A stretch of 64,000 bases of DNA, taken from NCBI RefSeq assembly GCF_009914755.1, contig NC_060938.1, one strand, 5' to 3'. A program made the translations under genes and the position numbers. Each line of letters starts with the position of its first letter. The stretch's first letter is position 1. Of this stretch, positions 9,293 through 17,174 are shown piece after piece. The DNA is from the human T2T-CHM13v2.0 reference genome, Homo sapiens. Under the pieces are notes generated by a model, which ran no database searches, was not told where the DNA came from, and saw nothing but the letters and a program-made list of their open reading frames with translations.

Positions 9293-11572
9293 TTATTCCA
9301 GGAGACAGGGACTACTGTACATATTATCTTTCCTATATAGGGTCTGCAAACAGGACTATTCAACTCCTCCATTCAAAATGCCACTCACACCTTTTGGAAA
9401 AAGTGAATATAATAGACTCTTGGCTAAATGCCAGGGGGTCCATTCGTATGAGGGAAAATGGCAACAAAAGGTAGGAATAAAACATTATTCCTACCTTGGC
9501 CAAAAAATTCACTGCCACCTACCTTAAAGCTATTATGCTTAATTGCTATTTTTAGAGAATTTAGGAATGTGCCTAGGCAGGCATGCAGGTGTGCTGGAGG
9601 GAAGCCAAGAGAGACCTACACACTCCAGAGTAGTTTGGAGAAGCTGGCTAAGGGTTTCTGGATCCTTGCAAAGCACAAAAGCTCAGAACAACTCTGTGGT
9701 GTGCAGCATGGTGCCAGCAGCAAGTCTCAGTTCAGCACCTTGAAAACCCAAGTGGGACCAGCCAAGCAAGCACCAGGGCCCAGGAACTAGACCGGGCAAG
9801 TCTCAAGACATCAGAGACCAGTAAACCTAGAAGAACAGCATGTGACAAAGGGTCCTCTTCCCACTGCCACAAGGATACAGAAGCCCACCCTGTCTCCAGA
9901 TGCCATCTTGGAAAAGAGAAGTGGGAACAGGAAGTGTATTAGTCAGAATGCAGAGTCAGCTACCATGACAGAGACCATAGTGACAGTGACATAAACAAGA
10001 TAGAAGGTTTCTCTCTTGTGAAGCATCCAAGTATTAGCAGTCCAGAGCTAATGGAGAAGCTCTTTGGTGTTGGAGACTCAGGTTCGTTCTCCCTTGAGCT
10101 CTTCCATTCCTAGACTGTTGGCTTCATCTGGTCTAAGATGGCTCCACACCATGGCACTTTCCAGGCAGCAACATAGAGACTGTATGGATATTATCCTATT
10201 GGCCAGAGCTGAGTCACATGGCTGTACCTGGCTTCAAGTGAGGCTGGGAAATGTAGTCTTTAATTGGGAAGCCATGGGCCTGGCTAAAGCTCAGGAGTTC
10301 TACCACTAAAGGAAGTAAGGGGGCTGCCAGGAAGACAGCCTGAAAGACGAATCCACTTTTCCAAAGGAATCTGAAGGAAAGTGATTTAAACCAGTGGAAT
10401 CTGAGCTGTCTCTAAGTGGCAGCTTCAAGGCACCTCTTCCCCATGCCCTGCTCTTTCTCCCTACAATGGGGTTCCAGATCCAGAGAGCAGTTAAAGGAAA
10501 TAGTGAAACACAATATCTTTTGCAGAGCTGAGGGTTACTTCACATATTTTCAACCCTTTTGAGAGAAAAAAACAGAGAACTGGGTGAAGTTTGAATTGCA
10601 GCTCCTCTGTTTCAGAGCACTCAGGCAGGCTGGCAGCTCACTCTTGGGAGAATAGGAGGGGACAGGCCTCTGTCACCAGCATTAATGGTCATCCCACAGT
10701 AGGTCTACGGAGAGGCACATCAGTCTTCTAAGGAAGTCTCATGAGTATTCAACAAGTATCAGATGATGACAGAATAGGAGGAGGTTTAGGGTAGGTAGGA
10801 GACAGGCCTGAAGTCAAAGACCCCATGAGCCCAATATTAAAATGATTTTCCCCCTTTGGTATTAGAGGAATAATAAGTGCTCTTGTTTTGTTCTTAATAC
10901 CAGCTCAGAACCTACTAGCAGAGTATTATTTTATCAGCCTATCTTCATGAAAAATCTGTGAAGCAGGGACTATTACTATTCCCATTTTACAGATGAGAAA
11001 ATGGAACCTCAGAGAAATTAAACAAGAATGACCCAACATCTCTAAGGGAGGTGAGCCTGGAGAGCAGAGGAATTGAGCTGGGCTGGGGCTTTTCTTCCCT
11101 AAGGATCCTACGGAACATGTTGCATCACCATCAAACATGGTGGAGTATGTTTCTTAGAAAGATGGAGGAAGAAATTCCTGGCAGGTCATGGTGGCTGATG
11201 CCTGCAATCCCAGCAGTTTTGGAAGCCAAGGCAAGAGAATTACTTGAGCCAGTACTTCCAGACCAGCCTGAGCAACACGATGAGACCCTGCCTCTATAAA
11301 AACACAAAAAAATTAGCAGTATGTGGTGGCACATGCCTGTGGTCCCAGCTACTCGGGAGGCTGAGGCCAGAGGATCACTTGAGCCCAGAAGGTTAAAGCT
11401 GCAGTGAGCCATGATCAAGCCACTGCACTCCAGCCTAGGAAGCAGAGCAAGACCATGTCTCAAGAAGAAAGAAAAAAGAAAAAGAAAAGAGGAAGAAATT
11501 CCTGACTGCTCTTAATATAGTTATTTTCCAAAAGGGAGACACTGAATTTATAGGTGATATGTATAATGATCA

Positions 11573-11612
11573 TGTGTGTGTGTGTGTGTGTGTGTGTGTG
11601 TGTGTGTGTGTG
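11573..11612. repeat. (TG)n microsatellite, about 20 units
   Basis: Seen directly; paralogue in the right arm is about (CA)7 near 23511-23524. Confidence 0.95.
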
Positions 11613-14730: not shown

Positions 14731-15063
14731 TTTTTTTTTTTGAGAGGGAGTTTCATTCTGTCCCCCAGGCTGGAGTGCACTGAGGGAGTTTCACTCTGTC
14801 ACCCAGGCTGGAGTGTAGTGTCGTGATCTTGGCTCACTGCAACCTCCACCCCACTAGGTTCAAGCAATTCTTTTGCCTCAGCCTCCCCAGTAGCTGGGAT
14901 TATAGGCGCCCACCACCACACCGGGCTAATTTTTTTGTATTTTACTAGAGACAGGGTTTCACCATGTTGGTCAGGCTGATCTCAAACTCCTGACTTCAGG
15001 TGATCCACCTGCCTCAGCCTCCCAAAGTGCTGGGATTACAGGCATGAGCCACCATGCCCGGCC
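14731..15063 (-). mobile_element. AluS-type, left arm only, with ~39-bp internal duplication
   Basis: TSD gcaaggtgttcactttt (14714-14730) / acaaggtatttactttt (15064-15080); empty site in the right arm near 20710-20726. Confidence 0.88.
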
Positions 15064-17174
15064 ACAAGGTATTTACTTTTTATTTTCCTAGGAAGGACAA
15101 TAAAAATCAACTACTACTGCCATTTTGTATCACATCATTTCCAGAAGGAAAGATCATATTAACAATGACAACAACCAAAAAAAAAAAAAAAATGGAAGGA
15201 AATAACTTCAGCACAAAAGACGGTGCTTGCTAGGACAAGTGGGATGGCAACTTTACTTCAGCATACATGCTTGCTGTGCACTGGCTCTTTCTTCTTCAAT
15301 TTTTTTTTTTTTTTTGAGATAGGAGTCTCGCCCTGTCGCCCAGGCTGGAGTACAGTGGCACCATCTCAGCTCACTGCAACCTCTGCCTTCAGAGTTCAAG
15401 CGATTCTTGTGCCTCAGCCTCCCAAGTAGCTGGGATTACAGGCATGTGCCACCACGACGAGATTTCACCATGTTTGCCAGGCTGGTCTTGAACTCCTGAC
15501 CTCAGGTGATCCGCCCACCTCGGCCTCCCAAAGTGCTGGGATTACAGGCGTGAGCCACTGCACCTGGACCATTCCTCCTTTTTTTTTTTTTTTTTTTTAA
15601 GACAGAGTTTTGCTCTTGTTGCCCAGGCTGGAGTGCAATGGCGTGATCTCAGCTCACTGCAATCTCCACCTCCAGGGTTTAGGTGATTCTCTTGCTTCAG
15701 CTTTCTGAGTAGCTGGGATTACAGGCGCGTGCCACCACACCAGGCTAGCTTTTGTATTTTTAGTAGAGACGGAGTTTCACCATGTTGGCCAGGCTGGTCT
15801 TGAACTCCTGACCTCAAGTGACCCACCCACCTCGCCTCCCAAAGTGCTGAGATTACAGGCATGAGCCACCGCGCCCAGACTCATACATTTGTTGTGTGTT
15901 TGAAATATTTTATGATAACAAGGTAAATTATTTCTAAAAACGCCACTACACCCATTGCCACGCAATACTGTACTAGAAATCCCAGCCAATGTAATGAAAC
16001 AAACAAAAAAAAAGAATTAAAGTATTTTAAATGTGGGCAAATGGTCTGCATACTGCTGCAGTACCTGAAATAAGAGACCTTTTAGAGGACTTGAGTAAAG
16101 AGAATTTTCTTTTTTTTTTTTTTTTTTTGGTAACATGAGATCATTTGTTCAAGAGTAAGAATAGTATGAAGACAGGAGCTCCTTCCCTAAAGGATATAAG
16201 GGACGATAAGGGACTCTGGGAGTTTGTTAGCATAAAGCATCCCTAAGAGGATGGCTCTTGAATCTATTCATCCACCCTACAGAGTTTTTTGGTTGATTCA
16301 GGTTCTGCCACTCATTTATGAGAGCGTGATGTTTAGGAGAGTTTTATTGAATACAATGCTTTGCTAGTCATTTACTGCTTCCTGTTTTGACTTTTTAAAT
16401 TTCCAGTCAGCAATCTCACTCTTAATCAAATGCCTTATCATACAGAGAAAAGAAAAAAGAGGAATCCTGTTTTTCTCATGTTAACTATTTTTATTTTTGA
16501 ACTAATGTGAATTCTTGCGTATGTGTTTTTGCTGAACATGACAAATCAGTCTCACTCTTGTTGCAAGTCAGCCCTGGTTTGGGAAGTCATGGGTTCCAGA
16601 TACCAGACACAAATAATAGTGACTTTTACCAATGTCTTTTTATGCTTATTAGGGCCTGAAGGTAGAAGATAAGACAATAGATAATATCGATAGTATTTCT
16701 TTGATTTACTGAACCCTAAATTCAAAAAAGAAGTTTTATTTGGGAGAGGAAATACAAGAAAATGAGACAAGGAACTTATCTCAACAAATAAGCAGTAACT
16801 TTCAGGAGATGTCTGAAGGTCAGCCCGGATTCAGCCCAGAGTCTTAGACTCATTTACCCATAGCAACATCTAGAGAGGTAGCTGGGCTGGAAACCAGAGC
16901 CACTGCTTTGTGGCTAATTTGCTGTGTGATCTTAGGTATCATACCTCCTTCGGTACCTCAATTTCCTCATTTGCAAAACCAGAGTCCCTGGGTATACCAT
17001 CTCCAAAGTTATTTCAGTTCCAAATTCTATAGCCAAAAGTCAGAATGGGACTTCATTTCTTCTAGAAAGTCACCAGAAGTTGGAGCAAAGAGCAAAGTTG
17101 GAGCAAAATGGCTCTTCTGGTGAACTCTCATTTATTCATTGAATATTTGGTCAATATGTGCTAAGTGCTTACAG

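What the first reader, a model, noticed from the sequence alone, without database searches (positions are those of the whole stretch)
9563..15370. Age paradox between arms points to gene conversion
Seen: unique stretches such as 9785-9970, 10020-10400 and 14300-14480 are near-identical to the other arm, with mismatches in tight clusters. The shared Alu at 13449-13752 / 21692-21992 differs by roughly 10% (by eye), and an old AluS-type element with decayed TSDs is present in one arm only. Inference: the duplication is old, and arm-to-arm conversion homogenised segments away from large indels, like a miniature autosomal version of Y-palindrome concerted evolution.
Basis: partly seen in the sequence, partly recalled or inferred. 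Interest (0 to 1): 0.7.

Follow-up and report, generated by a model that had tools for sequence, protein, structure and literature searches.

The report
Old inverted duplication patched by conversion
Two mirror-image, roughly 5.3-kb copies of non-coding DNA on human chromosome 14 are almost identical in some patches and 6-12% different in others, likely because an old duplication has been re-copied patch by patch between its arms by ordinary gene conversion.

Summary
Arms 9563-15583 and 25485-20140 form an inverted duplication: 249 mismatches in 5245 sites, 4.6-kb spacer, no third copy found. Three tracts differ by 0.7-1.4%, other stretches by 6-12%. The patchiness survives removal of CpGs and Alus (dispersion 3.0-3.6 against 0.6-1.5 in 7 unlinked control pairs). 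One tract is an old LINE piece that is not a mutation cold spot and carries GC-biased changes (25:9), a second sign of conversion. Arm A is likely the new copy: its outer edge cuts an endogenous retrovirus. That junction and the Alus bracket the age at likely 25-35 My. A plain model with published human conversion parameters (rate about 21 times mutation, 250-bp tracts) reproduces the mosaic, so nothing special is needed. No ape or monkey sequence was available, so the decisive tree test was not run. Verdict: a real but ordinary case of non-allelic gene conversion.

The parts
9563..15583 (+). Arm A, likely the newer copy; both of its junctions look derived
   Evidence: junctions
20140..25485 (-). 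Arm B, likely the source copy; outer flank matches nothing else in the genome search, inner flank is a LINE tail
15584..20139 (.). Spacer, 4556 bp, no further arm homology
9728..10429 (+). Near-identical tract 1 (pairs with 25318-24617): 5/702 mismatches, perfect runs of 247 and 221 bp
12575..13063 (+). Near-identical tract 2 (pairs with 22555-22068): 4/487 mismatches; lies in an old interspersed repeat (L1M-type 3' end, label recalled) with GC-biased derived changes
14173..14534 (+). Near-identical tract 3 (pairs with 21272-20911): 5/362 mismatches
11170..11490 (+). Shared old (J-like, label recalled) Alu, pairs with 23874-23606; non-CpG difference 9/186, 16 of 17 CpG sites in the same state; 45-bp deletion in arm B
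13140..13448 (-). Arm-A-only Alu (Y-like, label recalled) sitting in the poly(A) tail of the shared Alu
13449..13752 (-). Shared S-type Alu (pairs with 21991-21691): orthologous but deeply diverged, non-CpG 24/219, CpG state shared at 14 of 24
14714..15080 (-). Arm-A-only S-type Alu with its decayed 17-bp target-site copies (about 14714-14730 and 15064-15080); 3 of 24 CpGs intact
15298..15570 (-). Innermost Alu pair (with 20499-20156); the arm B copy is a patchwork with a 48-bp insert and is no closer to its partner than unrelated Alus are
15575..15883 (-). Alu whose poly(A) tail forms the inner junction of arm A; no second copy of its flank word in the window, so no target-site duplication found
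5506..9563 (+). Endogenous retrovirus (LTR 5506-5966, gag, protease and RT pieces; HERV-H label recalled) that stops exactly at the outer edge of arm A, about 240 bp before its second LTR would begin

Best explanation
This is an inverted segmental duplication with patchy arm identity that likely arose about 25-35 million years ago and has likely been homogenised since then, a few hundred bases at a time, by GC-biased non-allelic gene conversion between its arms. Shown: two arms, mosaic divergence of 0.7-12%, arm-only Alus, a retroviral element cut at the outer edge of arm A, and GC-skewed changes in one near-identical tract. Inferred: arm A is a copy of B laid down in reverse 4.6 kb away, replacing the 3' end of the retroviral element (template switching, with poly(A)/poly(T) microhomology at the inner junction). 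Inferred: breaks in one arm are sometimes repaired on the other arm, so each site has been overwritten roughly one to three times. Patches converted most recently differ by about 0.7%; patches never or long ago converted keep 6% or more.
For: (1) Dispersion of non-CpG mismatches is 3.0-3.6, or 2.4-2.9 with doublets merged, against 0.63-1.46 in 7 of 7 unlinked duplicate pairs of 3.0-6.7% divergence. (2) A two-state HMM beats one rate, AIC 1339.5 against 1361.6, with rates 1.2% and 5.4% and segments of 200-240 bp. (3) Tract 2 is not a cold spot: it lies 13.8% from the majority of 20 outside copies (those copies: 11.3 +/- 1.5%), yet the arms differ at 3 of 360 columns and share 47 derived states. 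(4) Its derived changes are weak-to-strong skewed: 25:9 non-CpG against 249:281 outside (p 0.004, above all 20 copies), and 15:0 when states shared with other copies are set aside. A spacer LINE (14:9, p 0.40) and four unhomogenised arm Alus show no significant skew. (5) Simulation with the parameters of bioRxiv 10.1101/135152 (rate ratio 21, 250 bp) and 5-7% background divergence matches all summaries; ABC medians are 6.6%, 24 and 233 bp; no conversion gives P 0.0007 at control-level rate variation. (6) Age: shared S-type Alu 11% non-CpG apart; arm-only S-type Alu with 3/24 CpGs left and 3/17 target-site differences; LTR 6.5% non-CpG from its best search hit. Scale: 0.87% human-chimp and 5.50% human-macaque for X palindrome arms (PMC8327919).
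Against: No outgroup species, so conversion is inferred from one genome. Tract limits were picked after seeing the data. Merging mismatches within 10 bp removes the longest-run and Sawyer signals. No conversion with rate CV 0.3 still reaches the observed dispersion in 0.9-2.5% of runs. The GC skew rests on one tract; with CpG columns kept, 2 of 20 outside copies are as skewed; tract against spacer is p 0.39 on all non-CpG changes and p 0.03 on private ones; outside copies were chosen as best hits to the arm. The 7 controls come from only 2 duplicons, and 2 of 7 were themselves mildly overdispersed (p 0.025, 0.014). ABC intervals are wide (background 3.8-13.5%, tract 55-1690 bp). The innermost Alu pair cannot serve as a clock. 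The outer junction could be a later deletion, which would loosen the upper age bound.
Confidence: 0.8

Rival explanations
1. Recurrent inversion of the spacer by crossover between the arms is the main homogeniser; the clean tracts are crossover-associated heteroduplex tracts.
For: Inverted geometry and perfect runs of 151-247 bp would allow crossover. The outcome cannot be told from non-crossover conversion in one sequence.
Against: Both derived-looking junctions sit on arm A, which fits no net inversion. No inversion between 80.1 and 99.8 Mb among the 18 chr14 rows of Table S1 in PMC10150506. No 'chr14 92' row in the human-chimp inversion list of PMC1270012 (old-assembly position recalled). 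None in the searchable part of PMC9712629. These lists can miss 5-kb events.
Confidence: 0.1
2. A younger duplication (about 12-18 My) with locally variable mutation rate or selection; the old-looking Alu differences come from Alu loss and Alu-to-Alu conversion.
For: Much of arm A (10430-12249) sits at 3.3% non-CpG. The inner Alu in arm B is a patchwork. Signals weaken when clusters are merged. An annotated silencer lies in tract 1.
Against: Unlinked controls show excess CV 0-0.21 against 0.56-0.60 here. Tract 2 is a freely mutating repeat. Non-Alu segments also reach 5.6-6.3%. Two precise Alu losses from arm B would be needed. The other annotated silencer lies in a diverged segment (16/201).
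Confidence: 0.06
3. Two or more separate duplication events of different ages built the arm.
For: Would also give segments of different divergence.
Against: The arms are colinear end to end. Low and high segments alternate many times. No third copy in two genome searches.
Confidence: 0.03
4. The near-identical tracts are assembly or polishing artefacts.
For: Tracts above 99% identity can attract mismapped short reads (general knowledge).
Against: The tracts are at most 0.7 kb inside 95%-identical arms and still hold a few differences. An artefact would not produce GC-skewed derived states shared by both arms.
Confidence: 0.01

Closest known systems
Non-allelic (interlocus) gene conversion between human duplicates (bioRxiv 10.1101/135152; PMC10172114; PMC3924837; passages read)
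   Same: Short GC-biased tracts. The published mean tract (250 bp) and rate (2.5e-7 per base per generation against 1.2e-8 mutation) reproduce this mosaic. Pairing is expected to be disturbed by transposon insertions and large indels (PMC3924837).
   Different: Non-genic, small and only 95% identical; reported conversion hotspots have a median of 99.4% identity. The locus did not turn up in my searches.
Large X/Y palindromes with arm-to-arm conversion (PMC8327919, passages read; PMC8981503 and PMC3723533, listing and abstract start only)
   Same: Inverted arms around a spacer, conversion between arms, GC bias, likely persistence for 25 My or more.
   Different: Arms 5.3-6.0 kb, not over 8 kb; 95% identity, not over 99%; no annotated genes; autosomal; conversion too slow to hold the arms together.
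Inverted repeats that mediate recurrent small inversions (PMC10150506, Table S1 chr14 rows read)
   Same: Two inverted copies a few kb apart with perfect runs of about 200 bp.
   Different: No inversion listed here in 41 genomes; junctions suggest no net inversion.
Alu-to-Alu gene conversion giving hybrid elements (PMC1266357, passages read)
   Same: The inner Alu of arm B shares states with an unrelated window Alu at 55420-55747 that its arm A partner lacks.
   Different: A single passive copy with a 48-bp internal duplication; donor not identified.

Membership tests
Intrachromosomal inverted segmental duplication | At least 1 kb, at least 90% identity (threshold recalled), low copy, not a mere interspersed repeat | tested here: met
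   5245 aligned sites at 95.3%; two copies only in own-genome searches of 1.5-kb pieces of each arm
Duplicates under non-allelic gene conversion | Mosaic identity beyond chance and beyond unlinked controls | tested here: met
Duplicates under non-allelic gene conversion | GC bias in converted tracts | tested here: met
   Tract 2: 25:9 against 249:281, p 0.004; one tract only; direct contrast with the spacer LINE p 0.03-0.39
Duplicates under non-allelic gene conversion | Paralogs group by species in converted tracts | not testable with these tools
   No primate relatives held
Duplicates under non-allelic gene conversion | Polymorphisms shared between paralogs in human populations | not testable with these tools
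   No population data; nothing found in the 30,133 searchable supplement characters of PMC10172114
Duplicates under non-allelic gene conversion | Divergence peaks at large indels | tested here: inconclusive
   About 6% within 200 bp against about 3% beyond; circular-shift p 0.07-0.21; no gradient
X/Y-type palindrome (criteria of PMC8327919) | Arms longer than 8 kb | tested here: not met
   Arms 6.0 and 5.3 kb
X/Y-type palindrome (criteria of PMC8327919) | Arm identity above 99% | tested here: not met
   95.3% overall; only two tracts of 0.5-0.7 kb reach 99.2-99.3%
X/Y-type palindrome (criteria of PMC8327919) | Protein-coding genes in the arms (21 of 26 X palindromes) | tested here: not met
   The supplied RefSeq table lists no gene in either arm; no gene search of my own was run on the arms
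Inverted repeat with recurrent inversion polymorphism | Spacer found in both orientations | tested here: inconclusive
   Not listed in the tables I could search; ape supplement not readable

The most novel reading that the evidence does not exclude
A gene-free autosomal mini-palindrome that has kept converting, and perhaps flipping its spacer, for about 30 My. It holds two near-identical copies of an annotated silencer (24771-24870 and its unannotated twin at 10176-10275, 1 mismatch in 100) between the LGMN and GOLGA5 promoters, while its S-type Alus escape homogenisation by pairing with outside Alus. It would be a tightly dated natural test of local escape from concerted evolution.
Probability: 0.1. 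Interest if true: 0.5.

Novelty: new member of a known kind. Interest (0 to 1): 0.22.

Why it matters
Modestly. It shows that average human conversion parameters are enough to give a striking 'age paradox' in a small, gene-free inverted duplication, so overall arm identity (95%) underdates it. The retroviral junction and the arm-only Alus bracket its age, which makes it a clean case for measuring conversion rate, tract length and GC bias once ape and monkey sequences are aligned. In practice, the 0.4-0.7 kb tracts can confuse short-read variant calls and element annotation upstream of GOLGA5.

Tried and rejected
The BLAST-based dispersion of the arms (7.66) was discarded: BLAST aligned the arm-only Alu to the shared Alu. 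The piecewise alignment was used instead.

A first Alu clock that dropped 51 variable columns lost too much signal (J against S pair p 0.48). With only CpG and linker columns masked, p is 0.029. The innermost Alu pair was rejected as a clock: 4 of 19 CpG states shared, as in unrelated pairs (mean 0.27).

A recombination-hotspot motif (recalled PRDM9 13-mer) has 12 matches in the window, none inside tracts 1-3, so no hotspot link. Small indels (28-45 bp) show no effect on divergence (p 0.69).

Literature: 'GOLGA5 + LGMN + inversion' gave 1 unrelated paper; '14q32.12 / segmental duplication / inverted / GOLGA5' (3 of 4 terms) gave 1 unrelated paper. Searches listed general papers only, none on this locus by title or abstract start. 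Supplement searches found no inversion or conversion call at the locus, but several files were cut, unreadable or not held. GC bias in tracts 1 and 3 was not tested.
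Full report
Observation. Self-BLAST and a global alignment show an inverted duplication: arm A 9563-15583, arm B 25485-20140, spacer 15584-20139. A piecewise alignment that leaves out the two arm-only Alus gives 5245 sites, 249 mismatches (4.7%), 203/5123 non-CpG (4.0%) and 35 gaps. Searches of the own genome with 1.5 kb from each arm found the two arms plus interspersed-repeat hits only (40 candidates scored each). No relatives are held.

Is the patchiness real? Three tracts stand out: 9728-10429 (5/702), 12575-13063 (4/487) and 14173-14534 (5/362). 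Other non-Alu segments are at 5.6-6.3% non-CpG, and 13064-13139 is at 12%. These limits were chosen after seeing the data, so I rely on whole-arm statistics. Dispersion over 200-site windows is 3.54 without CpGs and 3.00 without CpGs and Alus (p<1e-4), and 2.4-2.9 with adjacent doublets merged (p<=0.0004). Against: merging everything within 10 bp leaves 1.70 (p 0.022) and removes the longest-run and Sawyer signals, and transversions alone give p 0.07 for dispersion. That merge is harsh, since it discards about 40% of mismatches, mostly from dense segments. As controls I used unlinked duplicates: a chr17 stretch against four paralogs and a chrX stretch against three (positions recalled as NF1 and ABCD1, not verified). 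All 7 pairs gave 0.63-1.46 at 3.0-6.7% divergence, two of them with p<0.05. Excess CV was 0-0.21 against 0.56-0.60 for the arms. A two-state HMM fits better than one rate (AIC 1339.5 against 1361.6; 1.2% and 5.4%; segments 200-240 bp).

Not a cold spot, and GC-biased. Tract 2 lies in an old repeat with hits at 72-78% elsewhere (L1M label recalled). Against the column majority of 20 of those copies, the arms are 13.8% diverged over 12700-13063 and the copies 11.3 +/- 1.5%; the arms share 47 derived states and differ at 3 of 360 columns. So the tract mutates normally and both arms carry the same mutations. Weak-to-strong against strong-to-weak changes are 28:14 overall (2 of 20 copies as skewed), 25:9 outside CpG columns (p 0.004; 0 of 20 as skewed) and 15:0 for private non-CpG changes. 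A single-copy LINE in the spacer gives 14:9 (p 0.40 against 21 copies), and four unhomogenised arm Alus show no skew. The direct tract-spacer contrast is p 0.39 (all non-CpG) and 0.03 (private). This is supportive, from one tract only.

Anatomy and direction. Left of arm A lies an endogenous retrovirus: LTR at 5506-5966, with Pfam Gag_p30, zf-CCHC, RVP and RVT_1 matches in 4 of 7 frames scanned. I recall the LTR and primer site as HERV-H. Its homology to other copies stops at 9563, where four copies examined continue with mutually similar sequence; about 240 bp of that continuation and the second LTR are absent from the window. Arm B's outer flank matches nothing else. At the inner end, arm B abuts a LINE tail, while arm A joins the poly(A) of an Alu whose flank word occurs only once in the window. 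Both derived-looking junctions are on A. Inference: A is the copy, inserted in reverse with loss of the element's 3' end, by template switching with poly(T) microhomology at the inner junction, and the spacer has no net inversion. A later deletion at the outer end cannot be excluded.

Age. Among 34 Alu copies from the window, the shared S-type pair differs at 24/219 non-CpG columns, as much as 274 unrelated S/Y-like pairs (11.4 +/- 2.2%). It shares 14 of 24 CpG states, more than any of those pairs (maximum 0.54), so it is orthologous and split early. The shared J-like pair differs at only 9/186 (p 0.029 against the S pair). The arm-only S-type Alu keeps 3 of 24 CpGs, and its target-site copies differ at 3 of 17 bases. 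PMC1266357 (passages) places AluSp, AluSc and an AluY progenitor at the 35-40 My platyrrhine-catarrhine split and notes that some AluSx inserted later. The LTR is 6.5% non-CpG from its best hit. PMC8912925 (passages) dates HERVH entry to over 40 My and the oldest LTR7 wave to 25-40 My; I did not determine the subfamily. On the scale in PMC8327919 (0.87% human-chimp, 5.50% human-macaque), the old segments are at or above the macaque level and the tracts at the chimp level. Inference: duplication about 25-35 My ago, tracts last overwritten within the past several My. The innermost Alu pair is unusable: 4 of 19 CpG states shared, and a patchwork copy in B.

Indels. Non-CpG divergence is 6.3% and 6.0% at 0-100 and 100-200 bp from arm ends and Alu insertions, and 3.1-3.5% further out. 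Circular-shift p is 0.074, or 0.18-0.21 for the Alu insertions alone; non-Alu sequence is cleanest at 200-400 bp (1.3%). The expectation is standard (PMC3924837, passages), but the data here only hint at it.

How it likely works. bioRxiv 10.1101/135152 (passages) estimates 250-bp tracts, 2.5e-7 conversions per base per generation against 1.2e-8 mutations, and a large GC bias. Simulating uniform conversion at that ratio on 4864 sites with 5-7% background divergence gives mean divergence 3.1-3.7% (observed 3.15% with doublets merged), dispersion 2.8-3.7 (2.9) and a cleanest 700-site window of about 6 mismatches (6). Rejection ABC (1419 of 283,873 runs kept) gives medians of 6.6%, ratio 24 and 233 bp, about 1.6 hits per site, with wide intervals. 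Without conversion the observed dispersion is reached in 0.07% of runs at control-level rate variation and 0.9% at CV 0.3. No hotspot, selection or special protection is needed.

Known context. The locus works like other converting human duplicates (PMC10172114, passages) and shares geometry and GC bias with X/Y palindromes. It fails their defining criteria of arms over 8 kb and identity over 99%. No inversion is listed here among the 18 chr14 rows of PMC10150506 Table S1, or in the searchable supplements of PMC12350169 (file cut), PMC9712629 (one file unread, one cut) and PMC1270012 (older-assembly positions recalled). The supplement of PMC12058530 had no readable text, only 30,133 characters of PMC10172114's were searchable, and PMC8912925's was not opened. 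Any of these could bear on inversion status, conversion calls or the LTR's age. Two locus-specific searches found no paper on it; it is probably in segmental-duplication tracks (recalled, not checked).

Verdict. New member of a known kind; interest 0.22.

Noticed in passing
window 5506-9563: An endogenous retrovirus with one LTR and broken gag, protease and RT frames ends exactly at the outer edge of arm A; four other copies continue with shared sequence past that point. It points toward arm A.
   Followed up: yes
window 20156-20499: The inner Alu of arm B is a patchwork: its 5' part shares states with the Alu at 55420-55747, it has a 48-bp extra 3' segment with no poly(A) between, and its last 60 bp match arm A.
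   Followed up: partly
window 10176-10275: Unannotated twin of the RefSeq silencer 24771-24870 (1 mismatch in 100); the silencer 13968-14168 differs from its twin at 16 of 201 columns.
   Followed up: partly
window 13140-13752: A younger-looking Alu sits inside the poly(A) tail of an older one in arm A only; divergence jumps from under 1% to 12% in the 76 bp before it.
   Followed up: partly
window 14727-14800: The arm-only Alu has a short internal duplication next to its tail.
   Followed up: no
window 17817-18260: An Alu in the spacer whose right part appears duplicated in tandem.
   Followed up: no
L029/L030, L031/L032, L033/L034: Paired LTRs of three related elements differ by 3.2%, 6.0% and 10.0% non-CpG, a wide spread for one family.
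   Followed up: no
L047 and L066: Two outside LINE copies also show strong weak-to-strong skew (27:12 and 26:11).
   Followed up: no
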